Shown: positions 56,160-62,020 of the stretch, piece by piece
Layout: the number at the start of each line of letters is the position of its first letter
Position numbering within the stretch: position 1 is the first letter of the stretch
Source of the DNA: a virus
Lineage: Duplodnaviria > Caudoviricetes
Length of the DNA: 64,000 nt
Strand: one strand, 5' to 3'
Virus record (IMG/VR): IMGVR_UViG_3300013121_000041
Coordinates: 32,001 to 96,000 of that record
Notes under the pieces: model-generated
What the model was told of the DNA's origin: nothing
Databases searched by the model: none
The model's input: the letters and a program-made list of their open reading frames with translations, nothing else
Position numbers and translations under genes: made by a program

Positions 56160-57171
56160 CATCATTAAGGGCGTTGATCCGAATTACGAAGAAGTCGAAA
56201 TCATCACGACAGGTTTCCTAGACACAGGTTCCTACGCACTGAACGCCCTCCTATCCGGGTCGATTTACGGAGGTCTTCCAAATAATCGGACGTCGATGTT
56301 CGCGGGTGATCCGTCGACAGGTAAGACGTACCTAACGTTATCCGTCGTCAAACACTGGATGGATGAAATACCAGAAGCACGCATCCTCTGGTTCGACACG
56401 GAATTCGCACTCGACAGAGAGATGCTGGAACGGCGTGGTATCGACGCATCGCGCTTCTACATTCAACAGCCAGACACGTTGCAGGAATTTCGAACGAAGG
56501 CCCTCAAGATTCTCGAAGATTACGATGGGATGTCCGAACGCCCTCCGTTGATGATGGTCCTCGATTCTCTCGGCAATTTGCCGACGGCGAAAGAGGTCGA
56601 AGATTCTCTCTCCGGTTCTGAAACGAGGGACATGACGAAAGCGCAGATCATCAAGTCGATTTTCCGTCTTTTGACGTTGAAGTTGGGGAAACTCGGCGTA
56701 CCGATGGTGATCTGCAATCACACGTATGATTCGATGTCGGCTTACACGCCGAAGGAAATCAGCGGAGGTTCTGGGAGCAAGTACGCCAGTAGTACGGTAG
56801 TTACACTTTCCCGGTCGAAGGAAAAGGACGGCGACGTCGTCGTCGGCAATATCATCAGGGCCACGACGTACAAGAGCCGGTATTCCAAGGAACATCAGCA
56901 AGTCGAATTGGAATTGAACTTCGATACTGGCCTCGACAAATATTACGGTCTGTTGGACATGGCCGAATCTGCGGGCATATTCAAGAAAGTCGGTAACAAA
57001 TACGAGTTGCCCGACGGTTCGACCGAATTCAAAAAGACGATCAACGGCAATCCACGGAAATTCTACACGAAGGAAGTCCTCGATCGTATTGACGCCTTTG
57101 CGAAGGAACGTTACGGCCTTGGCACCGGCTTCATTCACACCAACGTCGATGCCGACGGAGAGGATGAATGA
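56113..57171 (+). CDS. uvsX: RecA-like recombinase UvsX
   Basis: DTGSY.LN.LLSG, GDPSTGKT, DSLG, DMTKA, GGSG. Confidence 0.95.
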   Translation: MAKKSKKVVKDDPFLDIIKGVDPNYEEVEIITTGFLDTGSYALNALLSGSIYGGLPNNRTSMFAGDPSTGKTYLTLSVVKHWMDEIPEARILWFDTEFALDREMLERRGIDASRFYIQQPDTLQEFRTKALKILEDYDGMSERPPLMMVLDSLGNLPTAKEVEDSLSGSETRDMTKAQIIKSIFRLLTLKLGKLGVPMVICNHTYDSMSAYTPKEISGGSGSKYASSTVVTLSRSKEKDGDVVVGNIIRATTYKSRYSKEHQQVELELNFDTGLDKYYGLLDMAESAGIFKKVGNKYELPDGSTEFKKTINGNPRKFYTKEVLDRIDAFAKERYGLGTGFIHTNVDADGEDE

Positions 57172-58547
57172 GGGTCAGTGAAATTCTTCTGAATAATCTG
57201 ATTCGAAACGAAGATTTCATCCGTCGCGCCAATCCGTACTTCAAGGAAGAATACTTCGAGACCGCTGCGGAACGGGCGACGTATCGTCACGTCGATCAGT
57301 ATATCGCGACGTACAACGTCCCCCCGACGTTCGACGCCATTCTCGTTGCGATGTCTCAAGACAAGGCGATTTCCGAAGTCGCGGAAAAGGAGATCGACGC
57401 TCTCGTCGGGCGGCTGAAGACGGCGACCGAAAAACAGGAGCTAAACTGGCTCCTGACGACGGCGGAACATTTCTGCCGTCAGCGGGCGCTGTATAACGCC
57501 ATCATGTCCTCGATTCAGATTTATGAGGGGAAGGACAAGACCCACGATTGGGGGGCGATCCCATCGATCTTGAACGAGGCGCTCGCCGTGTCGTTCGATA
57601 ATTCCGTCGGCCACGACTGGATGTCCGATGCCCCAGAGAGGTTCACGTATTACAACACGGTCGAGGACAAATTTGAGTTCGACGTCGATTTCCTCAACAA
57701 AATTACATTGGGGGGCGTGGCAAAGAAGACCCTCAATGTCCTCGTGGCAGGACCCCACGCCGGTAAGACGGCCATGTTATGTCACCTCGCAACGGGATAC
57801 TTGAAAAAAGGATTGAACGTCCTCTACATCACGAATGAAATCGCAGAGAAGGAGATTGGACGCAGGATCGACGCCAATTTACTCGACGTGAACATCGAGG
57901 ATTTGGCCAACGTGCCGAAGTCGTTGTTTTTCTCGGGCATCGATGCGATCAAGCAGAAGACCGGGGGGACGCTCAAAATCAAAGAATATCCCGCAACGCA
58001 CTGTCACGTTGGTCACATCGCCGCTTTGTTGGATGAACTTCGCCTGAAACAGGGGTTCGAACCTGCGATCCTCATCGTCGATTATCTCAACATCATGTCG
58101 TCGAACAGGATCAAGTTGGGCCAATCGGTGAATACTTACGTCTACATCAAGTCCATTTCCGAAGAACTACGGGGTCTCGCCACGGAACGACAGTTGCCAG
58201 TATGGACGGCGACGCAGTTCAATCGCACGGGGGCGAAGTCGTCCGATCCTGATATGGATACCGTGAGTGAATGTGTCCACGTCGATGAATTGGTCACATT
58301 GAGTTCCGGCGAAATGCGGCGCATCGTCGACGTTCAAATCGGCGACGGTATAATGTCGCACGACGGGATTAGGACGATCCTCAACAAATCAGACGTAAAA
58401 CGCAAACGCTGCTTTCGTGTTGGGACGAAATCCGGGAGGAGTATCGTCGTTAGCGGTGAACACGTCATCCCCACCGCGCGCGGTCGGCTGTCGATCGTCG
58501 GTGGACTGTGTGTGGGCGATAAAGTAAGGTCGGCCGATGCTGGATGA
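57168..58547 (+). CDS. 41: replicative helicase gp41, N-fragment fused to split intein N-part (58272-58544)
   Basis: AGPHAGKT, IKEYP, VDYLN, EELRGLA, ATQ; then SE|CV..D...QIGD...VSGEH. Confidence 0.92.
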   Translation: MRVSEILLNNLIRNEDFIRRANPYFKEEYFETAAERATYRHVDQYIATYNVPPTFDAILVAMSQDKAISEVAEKEIDALVGRLKTATEKQELNWLLTTAEHFCRQRALYNAIMSSIQIYEGKDKTHDWGAIPSILNEALAVSFDNSVGHDWMSDAPERFTYYNTVEDKFEFDVDFLNKITLGGVAKKTLNVLVAGPHAGKTAMLCHLATGYLKKGLNVLYITNEIAEKEIGRRIDANLLDVNIEDLANVPKSLFFSGIDAIKQKTGGTLKIKEYPATHCHVGHIAALLDELRLKQGFEPAILIVDYLNIMSSNRIKLGQSVNTYVYIKSISEELRGLATERQLPVWTATQFNRTGAKSSDPDMDTVSECVHVDELVTLSSGEMRRIVDVQIGDGIMSHDGIRTILNKSDVKRKRCFRVGTKSGRSIVVSGEHVIPTARGRLSIVGGLCVGDKVRSADAG

Positions 58548-58974
58548 GCGCCGATGTTTAGGTATTTTGGGCGTTTCTGACCGGGCTTCATTCGAGGACG
58601 TCGTTCGAGCGTATCGTAAAATTGTGAAGGCCGTCCATCCAGACCTCAATGGTGGCGTCGGTGATGTGGATAGACTGAGGACCGTTGTTGAAGCGTACAA
58701 TTTTCTCAAAAAGCGCCATTGGAAAATCCATCAACGGAGTTCGCCGCAGAGTGGGATAAACATTTTCAGAATTTTGGACAGCACGTTCAAAATTCACGTG
58801 GCGGTGGAGATCATCGAAGAAGATGACGTGATCTGTCATTGCATGAAAGATGATAAGGAGTTTAGATTTAGGATTCCGAAATCAACGACGTTGCCGACGA
58901 AAGCGACGATCCGCATTGGTTCTGAAACCATCGTGTTGAACATTTATGATGAGGCGTTGAACTATGATCGATGA
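58537..58974 (+). CDS. J-domain (DnaJ-like) protein
   Basis: ILGV....SFEDV.RAYR...K.VHPD...V.EAY..L. Confidence 0.9.
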   Translation: MLDERRCLGILGVSDRASFEDVVRAYRKIVKAVHPDLNGGVGDVDRLRTVVEAYNFLKKRHWKIHQRSSPQSGINIFRILDSTFKIHVAVEIIEEDDVICHCMKDDKEFRFRIPKSTTLPTKATIRIGSETIVLNIYDEALNYDR

Positions 58975-59377
58975 CTTGAAATACAACGATGAGATCGTGA
59001 CCATTGAAGAAATTGGTGAAATGGACACCGTGGATATTTCAGTTACCGGAGATCAGCTATTTTACTGTTCCGGCGTCCTCGTGAAGAATTCCTTCGGTCT
59101 GAATTTTACCGCCGACCTTGAGTTGGCGATGATCACCACGCCGGAAATGCGACAGAACGGCGTCGTCTTAATCAAACAATTGAAGAACAGGTACGGCGAT
59201 TACAACAAATACCCAAAATTCTACGTCGGCTTCGACCGCAACAAAATGCGTTTCTACGATCTCGGCGACGCGGCAACGCAGGGCGTCGGAGAGGAGGCGA
59301 CCGCCACCCCACGACAACCGACGGAGACGAAGCTGCCGGAACGGAAGCGGCCGATCAAAAAACTGGATTTCACATGA
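58964..59377 (+). CDS. 41: split intein C-part (58964-59089) fused to gp41 C-fragment
   Basis: DEIV.IE.IG...TVDISV.GD.LFY..GVLVKN|SFGL..TAD...KQLKNRY.D...MRFYD. Confidence 0.92.
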   Translation: MIDDLKYNDEIVTIEEIGEMDTVDISVTGDQLFYCSGVLVKNSFGLNFTADLELAMITTPEMRQNGVVLIKQLKNRYGDYNKYPKFYVGFDRNKMRFYDLGDAATQGVGEEATATPRQPTETKLPERKRPIKKLDFT

Positions 59378-59697
59378 TGATGACAGAAGAGGAAGTGCGG
59401 GCAACGTTAGAGACCGGCATCTGTCGGGTGGAATATACGACGTTAAAATGTCGTCGTGTCTCCATGTATTGCACGCTGTCAAAAATAATGATCCCCTCCA
59501 CCGTCCCCGATCTACCTCGTGAGGAGGGGACTTTCCTCGGTGAATTGCAGAAATACGTCGATGGGCGGAGGCCGAAGGGTTTCATCGTAGCGTGGGTAGT
59601 CCCGGCACCGAAAGCTTCATTCACGACCATCGGCGGCTGGCGCTCGTTTTACGTCGATCGTCTCCATTCCATAACCGTCGAGGTTCCCCTTGGATGA
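59374..59697 (+). CDS. SH3/WYL-like small protein
   Basis: VEYTT...R..M.CTL, GWRSF. Confidence 0.6.
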   Translation: MMMTEEEVRATLETGICRVEYTTLKCRRVSMYCTLSKIMIPSTVPDLPREEGTFLGELQKYVDGRRPKGFIVAWVVPAPKASFTTIGGWRSFYVDRLHSITVEVPLG

Positions 59698-60067
59698 AAT
59701 GACTTTCGTCGATGGGGTCCGTTCATTTCTCGGTCTTCGTGATGTGAGGGTGATCGTGACCGACAGGCCGTTCGACGAAGATTACGTTGGTTACATTCTG
59801 GAGGGGGCGTGCGACGCGAAGGAGGGCGTCATCTATCTCTACAGACCGTTCACCGAACGAATTTACGACGTCATCGTCCATGAACTTCTCCACGTTCGAC
59901 AGGCGAGGGATTGGGGGATGACGGCCGTGGGTGAGATCGTCATTTATAAGGGTGGTATTTACAACGTTTCTGAATTGGATTATGAGGACAGACCGTGGGA
60001 GAGAGATGTCATCTCTATGGAGGCCGCCGTCAAAGAGGCCGTCCTTAGACGAATGGGTGAGACGTGA
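59690..60067 (+). CDS. HEXXH metallopeptidase-like protein
   Basis: VHELLHVRQ, Y.DRPWE. Confidence 0.7.
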   Translation: MDEMTFVDGVRSFLGLRDVRVIVTDRPFDEDYVGYILEGACDAKEGVIYLYRPFTERIYDVIVHELLHVRQARDWGMTAVGEIVIYKGGIYNVSELDYEDRPWERDVISMEAAVKEAVLRRMGET

Positions 60068-60342
60068 TAGTTACGGTGTTTTTCGGGGATAATAAATGGA
60101 AGGTGATTGGACCCCCCGAATGCCCGCTCGTTCGCGTCGGCAATTACGATGAGATGATGGCGTTCGTCGCTGTCGGTGGGTGGGAGGTCCTTTCACACGA
60201 CGGGACGCCGATCGACCTGAGAGACCTCCGTTACTGGTCGGTCGATGATCAGGTGGCGTTCGTCGATCCCGCCGACGCGGTGAAATACATGATGAGAAAA
60301 GGAGATGATGGTGAAGTCCGGAAAATCGATCGAGAGGATTGA
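60064..60342 (+). CDS. hypothetical protein
   Basis: Coupled ORF. Confidence 0.5.
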   Translation: MIVTVFFGDNKWKVIGPPECPLVRVGNYDEMMAFVAVGGWEVLSHDGTPIDLRDLRYWSVDDQVAFVDPADAVKYMMRKGDDGEVRKIDRED

Positions 60343-62020
60343 AGAAGATCGCGATCTCGCGAGGGGCGAGATCATCGCCGCATACCTAGAATTCGTGAAA
60401 AAAAGCGGGAAACTTCCTAATTTCAGCGATCTCATGGCTGCCGGTATCAGCCGCGCCAAAGTTCGTCATCATTTTTCAAATCTTGACGGTCTGCACAACG
60501 AGATCGTCGATAATTATGCCGCCGATCTGGCAATGTACGTTGCCCACGAGGCGGTCGTTTTTTCGAACGACAAACTCGACGAGTTACGTGAGGAGATCGG
60601 AAAGTACAAGCGGTTCGTCATTACGACGGCGGTCAACGCGAAGGCCGTGTTCAAGCCTTTCTACGATTCCATCGTCAGTTATTGTGCGAAGAAGGAGGCG
60701 AAACTTTTGATCATCCCGTGCGCCGACATCTGGGATCGGTCGGCGTCGATGGCATGGACGTTCGATCCTGCCCTCGGTGGGGAGTCCTTCATTTTCGTCG
60801 ATACGAAACTCAACGATAACCTATCGATCTCGTCGATTCGGATGTCGGCCAAACAGATCAATCCGGTGACGGGGATGTCGCGCTTGGGGCAGCGTAACGG
60901 GTCTTTCATCTTCGCGTCGCCGAAGCAATTTTTGGAATTTGTGATGGGGTCTCCGGACCCCGATCGTCTACCGCACGCGATCATGACTACGGGGACGATC
61001 ACGATCCCAGACTATAACACCGATCGTTATATGTCGGAACGCATTTCCTATATTGCCGAAAACGATCATACTATCGGGGCCGTGATCGTTGAAATTGAAA
61101 ATGATCGGATTTTTCATTTTCGTCAAATGCAGGCAGACGCCGACGGTTCGTTCATCGATCTCGGCGTGCGGTACGCTCAAGACGGATCGACGAAAAAGGT
61201 TACGACCGACATCGTATTGGGTGACTACCACGCTGGTGTGACCGACGAGGTCGTCAAGAAGTGCACCGCCGAAATGTGCACCGAACTAGAAGTGGAAGAC
61301 ATGTTTCTTCACGACTTTTTTGACGGGAAGTCAATATCACACCACGATTTGGCCCAGCCGTTGAAACTGGCGATGAAGGCGGATCGCGACAATCAGCAAA
61401 ACGATCTTTTGAAAGAGATCAAGATCGGCGGCGCTGAGATCAATTGGCTGCACGGACTGATCCGTGGTGGCATCGTCATGGTTCGCGGCAACCACGACGA
61501 ATTCCTCGAACGGTATCTGTATCGGGGGACGTACATCAACGATCCGACGAACCATCGGCTGTCCCTCGAATTGGCCGCGAAGTTGCACGATGGGGTCAAT
61601 CCCCTCGAATACGCATATCTGACTTACGGTGACATCAAAGACGTGGATCGGGTGATCTGGCTCGATCGTGATCAGGAATACAAGGTCGGTGGCGTCGAAT
61701 TGGGACAGCACGGCGATCTTGGGTTTAATGGCTCCCGTGGGTCGCTCCTGTCGGTTGAAAAGGCATACGCAAATTGCGTCGTCGGTCACACACATTCTGG
61801 GGCGATCCTACGCGGCGTTTTTCGTGTCGGTACGTCTTCGAAACTGCGCCTCGATTATAATCGCGGTCCGTCGTCGTGGACGCAGACGCACTGTCTCGTT
61901 TATCGTAACGGCAGTCGACAATTGGTGAACGTCATCGACGGCAAGTGGAGGCTTCCCACTGTAGCGACGACGGGTAAGGTAAAGACGAAGAGGCGACGGG
62001 CCGATGCTGTATCGACATAG
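60305..62020 (+). CDS. large metallophosphoesterase-fold protein
   Basis: GDYH.G, HD.FDG, GNHD, QHGD.G.NG.RG, GHTH. Confidence 0.75.
   Translation: MMVKSGKSIERIEEDRDLARGEIIAAYLEFVKKSGKLPNFSDLMAAGISRAKVRHHFSNLDGLHNEIVDNYAADLAMYVAHEAVVFSNDKLDELREEIGKYKRFVITTAVNAKAVFKPFYDSIVSYCAKKEAKLLIIPCADIWDRSASMAWTFDPALGGESFIFVDTKLNDNLSISSIRMSAKQINPVTGMSRLGQRNGSFIFASPKQFLEFVMGSPDPDRLPHAIMTTGTITIPDYNTDRYMSERISYIAENDHTIGAVIVEIENDRIFHFRQMQADADGSFIDLGVRYAQDGSTKKVTTDIVLGDYHAGVTDEVVKKCTAEMCTELEVEDMFLHDFFDGKSISHHDLAQPLKLAMKADRDNQQNDLLKEIKIGGAEINWLHGLIRGGIVMVRGNHDEFLERYLYRGTYINDPTNHRLSLELAAKLHDGVNPLEYAYLTYGDIKDVDRVIWLDRDQEYKVGGVELGQHGDLGFNGSRGSLLSVEKAYANCVVGHTHSGAILRGVFRVGTSSKLRLDYNRGPSSWTQTHCLVYRNGSRQLVNVIDGKWRLPTVATTGKVKTKRRRADAVST

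What the first reader, a model, noticed from the sequence alone, without database searches (positions are those of the whole stretch)
57168..59377. gp41 helicase fractured by a split intein, with a J-domain gene between the halves
Seen: gp41-N ends ...DTVSE|C followed by a 91-aa IntN. A separate ORF begins with a 42-aa IntC ending VLVKN|SFGL, so splicing restores the conserved SESFGL. Established: fractured gp41 genes with split inteins are known, typically flanking a free-standing homing endonuclease. Here the intervening, overlapping ORF is an HPD-containing J-domain protein. Inference: a co-chaperone replaced the endonuclease and may recruit DnaK for trans-splicing or helicase assembly. The penultimate intein residue is Lys rather than His.
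Basis: partly seen in the sequence, partly recalled or inferred. Interest (0 to 1): 0.8.

Follow-up and report, generated by a model that had tools for sequence, protein, structure and literature searches.

The report
Split-intein phage helicase with J-domain gene
A sewage-sludge phage encodes its replication helicase in two halves that a split self-splicing element should rejoin, and the gap between them holds a small chaperone-helper gene instead of the usual DNA-cutting gene; this is unusual and probably a passenger.

Summary
On the + strand there are three overlapping ORFs:
- gp41 residues 1-368 followed by a 91-aa IntN (57168-58547);
- a 145-aa J-domain protein with an HPD motif (58537-58974);
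- a 42-aa IntC followed by the last 95 gp41 residues (58964-59377).

The exteins abut exactly on intact P-HM1 gp41, at residues 367 and 368. The intein halves match the gp41-1 intein structure 6QAZ.

Lys as the penultimate intein residue is a subgroup trait. All six relatives aligned have it.

The J ORF is a real gene. About 40 metagenomic proteins of roughly 140 aa match it over its full length.

The proposed functional link has no support from the comparisons I could make:
- 0 of 12 related split-helicase contigs carry a J gene. Five have a ~365-aa ORF in the gap and seven have nothing.
- Both J-family members with readable context lie in phage tRNA arrays.
- 0 of 35 phage DnaJ-like loci have a helicase nearby.

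My best reading is that the J gene is a horizontally acquired accessory that targets host DnaK and sits in the gap of an already split gene. It is a new variant of the known "fractured gene" layout.

The parts
57168..58271 (+). gp41 (DnaB-like replicative helicase) N-extein, 368 aa, ending ...DTVSE
   Evidence: phrog_19 E 4.5e-88 and Pfam DnaB_C 7e-15. 48% identity to P-HM1 gp41 residues 3-367.
58272..58547 (+). IntN: 91 aa starting with Cys1, block B ..SGEH.., then the TGA stop
   Evidence: phmmer against the PDB hits gp41-1 intein 6qaz_A at E 1.4e-10, residues 16-84. 35-48% identity to the IntN of 6 related loci.
58526..58529 (+). AAGG Shine-Dalgarno-like motif, with 7 nt between it and the J ORF ATG (58537)
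   Evidence: Read directly from the sequence. Inference only.
58537..58974 (+). 145-aa J-domain protein gene. It overlaps the IntN ORF by 11 nt and the IntC ORF by 11 nt
   Evidence: About 40 of the 150 best hits are proteins of ~130-160 aa that match full length (e.g. P0004 at E 1.5e-12 over query residues 7-131). Alignment A1.
58564..58713 (+). J domain (residues 10-59) with HPD at residues 34-36
   Evidence: Pfam PF00226 at 36.1 bits, above the 27.8 cut-off. 13 PDB J domains match at E <= 1e-3.
58759..58956 (+). Family-specific C-terminal domain (..FRIL.. ..CM..EFR..P..LP..), fold unknown
   Evidence: Conserved across the 29 sequences of A1. No Pfam family. hhalign against DnaJ C-terminal regions gives only 2% probability.
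58951..58954 (+). GAGG Shine-Dalgarno-like motif, with 9 nt between it and the IntC ORF ATG (58964)
   Evidence: Read directly from the sequence. Inference only.
58964..59089 (+). IntC: 42 aa ending ..GDQLFYCSGVLVKN (terminal Asn, penultimate Lys)
   Evidence: phmmer hits 6qaz residues 96-128 at E 0.0011, aligned to the last residue. 67-83% identity to the IntC of 6 related loci.
59090..59377 (+). gp41 C-extein: 95 aa starting Ser+1 (SFGL...), then the stop
   Evidence: T4 gp41 structure 8dtp residues 371-446 at E 7.5e-9. P-HM1 gp41 residues 368-433 at 50% identity.

Best explanation
The phage is a T4-like myovirus from activated sludge or wastewater. Its only DnaB-family helicase gene, gp41, is broken at the conserved SE|S site by a mobile class-1 split intein of the gp41-1 type. 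The two halves are translated separately. IntN and IntC then associate and trans-splice to give a 463-aa helicase; this step is inferred, not shown.

The gap between the halves usually holds a free-standing homing endonuclease gene or nothing. Here it holds a small type-III J-domain protein gene. It is translationally coupled to both halves through 11-nt overlaps, each preceded by a Shine-Dalgarno-like motif.

This J protein belongs to a metagenomic phage family of ~140-aa proteins. It most likely stimulates the host DnaK ATPase as a general host-takeover or proteostasis accessory, as Rki of phage RB43 does. Its position is most likely opportunistic: a horizontally acquired, lower-GC gene sitting where insertion costs nothing because the host gene is already split. 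There it is co-expressed with the replication genes.
For: Split intein and junction.

Single helicase: the 111-kb record has only one DnaB-family helicase. That helicase must therefore be rebuilt or work as two pieces.

Mobile intein: it is closest to the inteins of L005/L006 (IntN 47-48%, IntC 72-83% identity), while their exteins share only 21-23% identity with ours.

The J ORF is a real family member with HPD and an above-threshold Pfam DnaJ hit. The record has one J gene and no Hsp70, so the partner must be the host's.

Composition:
- J ORF: GC 0.46, GC3 0.54.
- IntC: GC 0.42, GC3 0.55.
- Exteins: GC 0.53-0.54, GC3 0.71-0.73.

No association of J genes with split helicases:
- 0 of 12 related contigs have a J gene in the gap.
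- The A1 profile finds no full-length family member in the 9 of those records searched.
- 2 of 2 family members with context lie in tRNA arrays beside SegE-like GIY-YIG genes.
- 0 of 35 DnaJ-like phage loci have a helicase ORF within 3.5 kb.

Rki precedent: PMC3486835, abstract and passages.
Against: - The tight coupling (11-nt overlaps on both sides, no spacer) is closer integration than Dassa et al. describe for endonuclease inserts, which have 27-51 nt spacers and their own control elements (PMC2677866 section 10). It guarantees co-expression with the helicase halves, which would also suit a dedicated role.
- J-domain proteins with DnaK are needed for lambda replication. I saw this only as a reference title; the mechanism (release of DnaB from lambda P) is recalled. 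A helicase-directed role is therefore biologically conceivable.
- Neither splicing nor DnaK stimulation has been tested.
Confidence: 0.6

Rival explanations
1. Dedicated co-chaperone. The J protein delivers DnaK to the intein-tagged helicase fragments. It keeps the truncated RecA-like N half soluble, promotes IntN-IntC association or splicing, or helps load or assemble the helicase hexamer.
For: - Translational coupling with both halves.
- This intein subgroup lacks both assisting histidines: the block-F His and the penultimate His of gp41-1 are Gln and Lys here.
- The IntC ORF lacks the 52-60-aa N-terminal extension present in all 6 aligned relatives.
- There is a lambda precedent for J-domain dependence of replication, seen only as a reference title.
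Against: - 0 of 12 related split loci have a J gene, yet they share the same His-less intein. That subgroup evidently manages without a locus-encoded J protein.
- The extension is also short (16 aa) in P0154, so its absence here is not unique.
- The extension profile shows no homology to the J family (hhalign probability 0.3%).
- The J-family members with readable context lie elsewhere.
- I found no paper that links the two. One paper holds both 'split intein' and 'J-domain', and its title and abstract start (a review of cancer-cell chaperones, listing) look unrelated; I did not open it.
Confidence: 0.12
2. Endonuclease-driven hitch-hiker. The J gene arrived as cargo of a homing-endonuclease cassette. 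The endonuclease was later lost and the cargo remained in the intein gap.
For: - In L056 the family member lies about 320 nt downstream of a SegE-like GIY-YIG gene.
- The window's own DNA polymerase gene is split by an HNH homing endonuclease, so endonuclease traffic in this genome is real.
- The J ORF and IntC are low in GC.
Against: - There is no endonuclease remnant at E < 0.03 in 58200-59200, and none in the whole window at E <= 0.01.
- The link to an endonuclease rests on a single locus.
Confidence: 0.2
3. Decaying locus. The split helicase is non-functional and the phage depends on a helicase encoded in the unsequenced ~39% of its genome, so the arrangement has no functional meaning.
For: The record is only 61% complete.
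Against: - All three ORFs are intact.
- The catalytic Cys1, block B His, terminal Asn and Ser+1 are present.
- Extein identity to P-HM1 gp41 is 48-50% with no stops.
- Identical sequence pieces occur in runs of four studies, 2019-2025.
- No second helicase lies in the 111 kb held.
Confidence: 0.05

Closest known systems
Fractured gp41 genes with split inteins (gp41-1 to gp41-8; Dassa et al. 2009, PMC2677866; gp41-1 structure PDB 6QAZ)
   Same: - The host gene and the layout match: three same-strand ORFs, with the N half plus IntN first and IntC plus the C half last.
- The intein is homologous to gp41-1 (E 1.4e-10 and 0.0011).
- IntN (91 aa) and IntC (42 aa) fall within the published ranges of 88-105 and 33-54 aa.
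   Different: - The middle gene is a J-domain protein, not a GIY-YIG or Vsr-like endonuclease.
- The ORFs overlap by 11 nt. The published loci have a 27-51 nt spacer.
- The two histidines that gp41-1 has in ..GNHLFYANDILTHN are Gln and Lys here.
- I could not compare with gp41-2 to gp41-8, because their sequences are in supplements that were closed.
gp41-7 locus (fractured gp41 without an endonuclease; Dassa et al. 2009, section 10)
   Same: It shows that the gap need not hold an endonuclease. 7 of the 12 related contigs I examined are like this.
   Different: Its gap is empty. Here the gap holds a different gene.
Rki (gene 057w) of T4-related phage RB43 (Perrody et al. 2012, PMC3486835)
   Same: It is a type-III J-domain protein encoded by a T4-like phage, with an N-terminal J domain and HPD, acting on host DnaK (abstract and passages).
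   Different: [quoted passage not shown]
- I did not test sequence relatedness beyond the J domain. A tblastn of the J ORF against 50,697 phage records gave only 2 J-domain-only hits, and neither was RB43.
Lambda replication dependence on DnaJ/DnaK (helicase release from lambda P; recalled, apart from the title of Wall et al. 1994 seen in the reference list)
   Same: A J-domain protein with DnaK acts on a replicative helicase complex of a phage.
   Different: That system uses host DnaJ and a helicase loader. It involves no intein and no phage-encoded J protein. I found no evidence that T4-type gp41 needs DnaK.

Membership tests
Fractured gene (Dassa et al. 2009) | [quoted passage not shown] | tested here: met
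Fractured gene (Dassa et al. 2009) | A free-standing homing endonuclease gene lies between the halves | tested here: not met
   The middle ORF hits only Pfam DnaJ and PHROGs of unknown function. No similarity to the relatives' ~365-aa ORFs. The paper itself lists one exception, gp41-7.
Fractured gene (Dassa et al. 2009) | A non-coding spacer of 27-51 nt with control elements lies before the middle gene | tested here: not met
   There is an 11-nt overlap instead. The promoter/terminator scan was not above shuffles: 5 against 3.5 and 9 against 5.1.
Class-1 split intein of the gp41-1 type | N-terminal Cys1 and block B (T/S)xxH | tested here: met
   Cys369 directly follows the extein end. ..SGEH.. 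aligns with ..SEEH.. of 6qaz.
Class-1 split intein of the gp41-1 type | C-terminal Asn followed by a Ser/Cys/Thr +1 nucleophile | tested here: met
   ..VKN|S aligns to the terminal ..THN of 6qaz. Ser43 aligns with P-HM1 gp41 residue 368.
Class-1 split intein of the gp41-1 type | Assisting histidines (block F His and penultimate His G:6) | tested here: not met
   Gln and Lys occupy these positions. Penultimate Lys is shared by all 6 aligned relatives; none of those 6 has His at the block-F position (5 Gln, 1 Asn). These positions are described as assisting and less conserved (PMC4031507 passage). Titles in that reference list report splicing without the penultimate His.
Class-1 split intein of the gp41-1 type | Protein trans-splicing activity | not testable with these tools
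   Needs co-expression and detection of the 463-aa product.
J-domain proteins (PF00226) | J-domain profile match above the curated cut-off, with the HPD tripeptide | tested here: met
   36.1 bits against 27.8. H34-P35-D36 are invariant or nearly invariant in A1. PDB J domains match.
J-domain proteins (PF00226) | Stimulation of the Hsp70/DnaK ATPase | not testable with these tools
   Biochemical assay needed. The record holds no phage Hsp70.
T4 gp41 / DnaB-like replicative helicase | Full-length collinear match once the intein is removed | tested here: met
   phrog_19 positions 165-522 and 522-589. P-HM1 gp41 residues 3-367 and 368-433. T4 gp41 8dtp residues 371-446.

The most novel reading that the evidence does not exclude
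The J protein is a locus-specific assembly factor. It is made in step with the two helicase fragments and recruits host DnaK to the aggregation-prone N fragment or to the intein halves. This split-intein subgroup lacks both assisting histidines, and in this phage the IntC also lacks the long N-terminal extension. On this reading, efficient trans-splicing or hexamer formation here depends on Hsp70. That would be the first natural chaperone-assisted protein trans-splicing system.
Probability: 0.1. Interest if true: 0.8.

Novelty: new variant of a known kind. Interest (0 to 1): 0.45.

Why it matters
Fractured genes are seen as the step by which homing endonucleases split inteins, and natural split inteins such as gp41-1 are major protein-engineering tools.

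This locus shows that the gap of a fractured gene can hold non-endonuclease cargo, tightly coupled in translation. I did not find this described in the two literature searches run for it.

It also belongs to a gp41 split-intein subgroup with Lys at the penultimate position, where gp41-1 has His. At the block-F position, where gp41-1 also has His, most members have Gln or Asn, though P0154 keeps His. This subgroup could supply further orthogonal split inteins.

If the J protein did act on the helicase fragments, it would link Hsp70 chaperones to protein splicing. The comparative evidence makes that unlikely, but a simple E. coli co-expression experiment would test it.

Tried and rejected
1. Is the 52-60-aa N-terminal extension of IntC in the relatives a degenerate J domain? 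hhalign of the extension profile A4 against the J family A1 gave probability 0.3%. Rejected.

2. Is there an endonuclease remnant under or beside the J ORF? tblastn of three relatives' ~365-aa ORFs against 58200-59200 gave nothing better than E about 1. Against the whole window nothing reached E <= 0.01. Rejected.

3. Is the C-terminal domain of the J family a DnaJ C-terminal domain? hhalign against 17 phage DnaJ-like ORFs gave probability 2%, E 0.024. No Pfam DnaJ_C hit in any of the 29 members. Unproven.

4. Close relatives of the J ORF:
- The word-index search found only the ORF itself.
- blastn of the locus against phages found nothing.
- tblastn against phages gave 2 J-domain-only hits, and 4 with P0004 as query.

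5. Context of J-family members:
- The search for related loci with P0005 gave 35 loci. All are ordinary longer DnaJ-like genes; none is a full-length family member.
- P0014 and P0012 gave nothing.
- A degenerate DNA pattern gave 0 hits in viral contigs.
- It gave 3 hits in metagenome contigs, of which 2 are true members and 1 (L057) is a chance hit.
- It gave 1 chance hit in a Streptomyces genome.

6. Fused or contiguous forms of this IntC in longer proteins: none of 45 candidates scored (weak evidence). The near-length search found only 3 other proteins.

7. The ~365-aa ORFs of the relatives had no Pfam hit. They had only weak PHROG hits: phrog_559 'HNH endonuclease' at E 8e-5, and phrog_22677 of unknown function. 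PDB gave nothing. Calling them Vsr-like endonucleases rests on position, size and my own reading of a motif, not on a test.

8. Sequencing runs. No RNA holder was listed. No contig bridged the J/IntC junction, and large parts of the stretch had no cover. I draw no conclusion from these gaps.

9. ESM Atlas. The best feature hits were viral J-domain clusters of 127-128 aa at scores of 0.88-0.89, below the 0.9 level. I treat them as leads only. The Atlas's own model of this protein is poor (pLDDT 0.57).

Full report
WHAT IS THERE

The window is bases 32001-96000 of a 110,965-base IMG/VR virus record estimated at 61% complete.
- 57168-58547 (459 aa).
- 58537-58974 (145 aa).
- 58964-59377 (137 aa).

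Both junctions are 11-nt overlaps of the form ATG...GATGA. AAGG precedes the second start with 7 nt between, and GAGG precedes the third with 9 nt between. The promoter and terminator scan over 55800-60400 was not above shuffled controls. I therefore read the three ORFs as one translationally coupled unit within the uvsX - gp41 replication block. uvsX is at 56050-57171 (RecA family).

THE HELICASE AND THE INTEIN

The first ORF matches PHROG 19 (DnaB-like replicative helicase) over profile positions 165-522 at E 4.5e-88. The third ORF matches the same profile over positions 522-589 at E 1.4e-12.

I aligned the two halves separately to the uninterrupted gp41 of Prochlorococcus phage P-HM1 (locus L059). 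The N half covers residues 3-367 and ends ...TSE. The C half starts at residue 368 with SFGL. T4 gp41 (8dtp) matches the C extein at residues 371-446. So residues 1-368 and 43-137 are the exteins, and the junction is exact.

The 91 residues after Glu368 start with Cys. They match the gp41-1 intein crystal structure 6qaz at E 1.4e-10, including the block B ..SGEH.. against ..SEEH... The first 42 residues of the third ORF match the end of 6qaz (residues 96-128) at E 0.0011, right up to the terminal Asn.

That alignment shows two differences from gp41-1. Where gp41-1 has ..GNHLFYANDILTHN, this intein has ..GDQLFYCSGVLVKN. Both the block-F His and the penultimate His are replaced. A review describes these as assisting, less conserved positions, and its reference list includes papers on splicing without the penultimate His (PMC4031507, passages only).

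The 111-kb record has no other DnaB-family helicase; the only other hit is uvsX at E 1e-3. It has no other copy of the intein either.

RELATIVES OF THE SPLIT LOCUS

Two scans of IMG/VR with the IntC half found 12 distinct contigs with the same IntC subtype. I read their ORFs.
- Five carry an ORF of about 365 aa between the halves: L002, L003, L004, L006 and L007. In L003 it is broken into 242 and 131 aa.
- Seven have the halves adjacent or overlapping with nothing between: L005, L047, L048, L049, L050, L051 and L052.
- None has a J-domain gene.

Several contigs are near-identical. By eye I count about six lineages, three with the ORF and three without.

The ~365-aa ORFs have no Pfam hit and only weak PHROG hits: phrog_559 'HNH endonuclease' at E 8e-5 and phrog_22677. 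I take them to be the free-standing endonucleases of Dassa et al. 2009 from their position and size, not from a test.

That paper (PMC2677866; abstract and sections 10 and 12 read) describes 26 fractured loci with an endonuclease gene in the gap. It reports a 27-51 nt spacer and one gp41 locus (gp41-7) without an endonuclease.

All six aligned relatives end ..TKN|S, so the penultimate Lys is a subgroup trait.

The intein here is closest to those of L005 and L006 (IntN 47-48%, IntC 72-83% identity). Their helicase exteins share only 21-23% identity with ours. This is the pattern expected of a mobile intein that moves between helicase lineages at one conserved site.

The relatives carry a 52-60-aa extension in front of IntC. 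Ours has only 6 residues there. A database protein, P0154, has 16, so a short extension is not unique to this phage. The extension is not related to the J family (hhalign probability 0.3%).

THE MIDDLE GENE

Pfam DnaJ matches residues 10-59 at 36.1 bits, above the 27.8 cut-off. HPD is at residues 34-36, and 13 PDB J domains match at E <= 1e-3.

An exhaustive HMMER search of 1.84 billion representatives gave 380 proteins at E <= 0.001. Among the 150 listed, about 40 (my count from the table) are proteins of about 130-160 aa that match from the J domain through to query residue ~120-140. An example is P0004 at E 1.5e-12 over residues 7-131.

I aligned 28 of them with the window protein as A1. 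Besides HPD they share a C-terminal ..(F/Y)RIL.. ..CM..EFR.. ..LP.. domain. That domain has no Pfam family in any of the 29. It is not demonstrably a DnaJ C-terminal domain (hhalign probability 2%).

So the ORF is a real gene of a recurrent family, and its start codon fits the family's N termini. The ESM Atlas lists viral J-domain clusters of 127-128 aa as the nearest, at scores below its reliable range.

The record has one J gene and no Hsp70.

DOES THE J GENE BELONG WITH THE SPLIT HELICASE?

Everything I could test says no, or is silent:
- 0 of 12 related split loci have a J gene in the gap.
- The A1 profile found no full-length family member in the 9 related records searched. One of those records is 100% complete; the other eight are 14-47% complete.
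- Context could be read for only two family members, L056 and L058 from JGI metagenomes. They are close to each other. Both lie inside phage tRNA arrays of 7 and 8 tRNA genes. In L056 the J gene sits next to two SegE-like GIY-YIG/NUMOD3 endonuclease genes. No helicase is present.
- 0 of 35 IMG/VR loci with ordinary DnaJ-like phage genes have a gp41/DnaB-like ORF within 3.5 kb.

Composition marks the J ORF (GC 0.46, GC3 0.54) and IntC (0.42, 0.55) as different from the exteins (0.53-0.54, 0.71-0.73). That fits later arrival from a lower-GC donor.

On the other side, the double 11-nt overlap is tighter than the published endonuclease inserts, and it guarantees co-expression with the helicase halves.

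I found no paper connecting split inteins with J-domain proteins:
- In one search, 47 papers held at least 2 of the 3 terms, and none of the 12 listed held 'J-domain'.
- In one search, one paper held both terms; by its title and the start of its abstract (a review of cancer-cell chaperones) it looks unrelated, and I did not open it.

IS THE ASSEMBLY REAL?

Logan contigs of four sludge or wastewater runs from four studies (2019-2025) carry pieces of the stretch with 0 differences. Pieces from X3 (58357-58628) and X4 (58434-58572) cross the IntN/J junction. No piece crosses the J/IntC junction, and no piece spans the whole locus. One of the runs may be the sample of origin.

VERDICT

It is a fractured gp41 gene of the known kind, with a gp41-1-type split intein of a Lys-penultimate subgroup and an unusual occupant of the gap.

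The most likely mechanism has two parts. The halves trans-splice to give a 463-aa helicase (inferred). The J protein acts on host DnaK as a general accessory, as Rki does in phage RB43 (PMC3486835, abstract and passages), and its position is opportunistic. I give this reading 0.6.

The rival readings are:
- Endonuclease-borne cargo that outlived its endonuclease: about 0.2.
- A dedicated role in splicing or helicase assembly: about 0.1.
- A decaying, non-functional locus: about 0.05.

I classify the finding as a new variant of a known kind, of moderate interest.

Noticed in passing
window 50876-54488: The family-B DNA polymerase (gp43) is also in two ORFs: 50876-52342 (exonuclease domain plus polymerase profile positions 23-138) and 53469-54488 (profile positions 162 onward). 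A 384-aa HNH homing endonuclease gene lies between them at 52251-53405 (phrog_655 E 2e-25; GC 0.39) and overlaps the end of the first ORF. I saw no intein motifs. This looks like a second fractured gene in the same phage, of the intein-less type that Dassa et al. mention for other T4-like phages.
   Followed up: partly
L047, L048, L050, L051 (positions ~500-2960): In these related contigs the uvsX recombinase gene just upstream of the split gp41 is itself fractured. The N half ends with an intein-like segment starting with Cys, then comes a 322-aa ORF, then a short intein-like C part ending ..VVTHN followed by the rest of UvsX. L052 has the intact gene. That makes two split-intein genes side by side in one phage lineage.
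   Followed up: no
L049:1826-4355: This relative's gp41 appears to carry a second interruption near the P-loop. One ORF ends ...LAGCVHPETKVKV..., and a separate ORF resumes ...HNTGVGKS.... This comes on top of the split intein at the SE|S site.
   Followed up: no
L002:3851-4003 and equivalents in L004-L006, L047, L049: A conserved 52-60-aa N-terminal extension precedes IntC in all six aligned relatives, including those without an endonuclease gene. It has no Pfam or PHROG hit and its role is unknown. It is absent from the window's IntC.
   Followed up: partly
window 47824-49215: A 463-aa ORF with a TROVE domain (Ro60-like; Pfam E 1.5e-11). This is an unusual gene for a phage.
   Followed up: no
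window 50283-50822: A 179-aa ORF with a peptide chain release factor RF-1 domain including GGQ (Pfam RF-1 E 1.5e-20, PCRF E 2.9e-10). It lies just upstream of the DNA polymerase gene.
   Followed up: no
L056 and L058: Members of the small J-domain family lie inside phage tRNA gene arrays (7 and 8 tRNAs within 4.1 and 1.9 kb). L056 also has two SegE-like GIY-YIG/NUMOD3 endonuclease genes.
   Followed up: partly
window 58537-58547 and 58964-58974: Both ORF overlaps have the same 11-nt form (ATG, three bases, GATGA). This may be coincidence or a trace of how the J gene was inserted.
   Followed up: no
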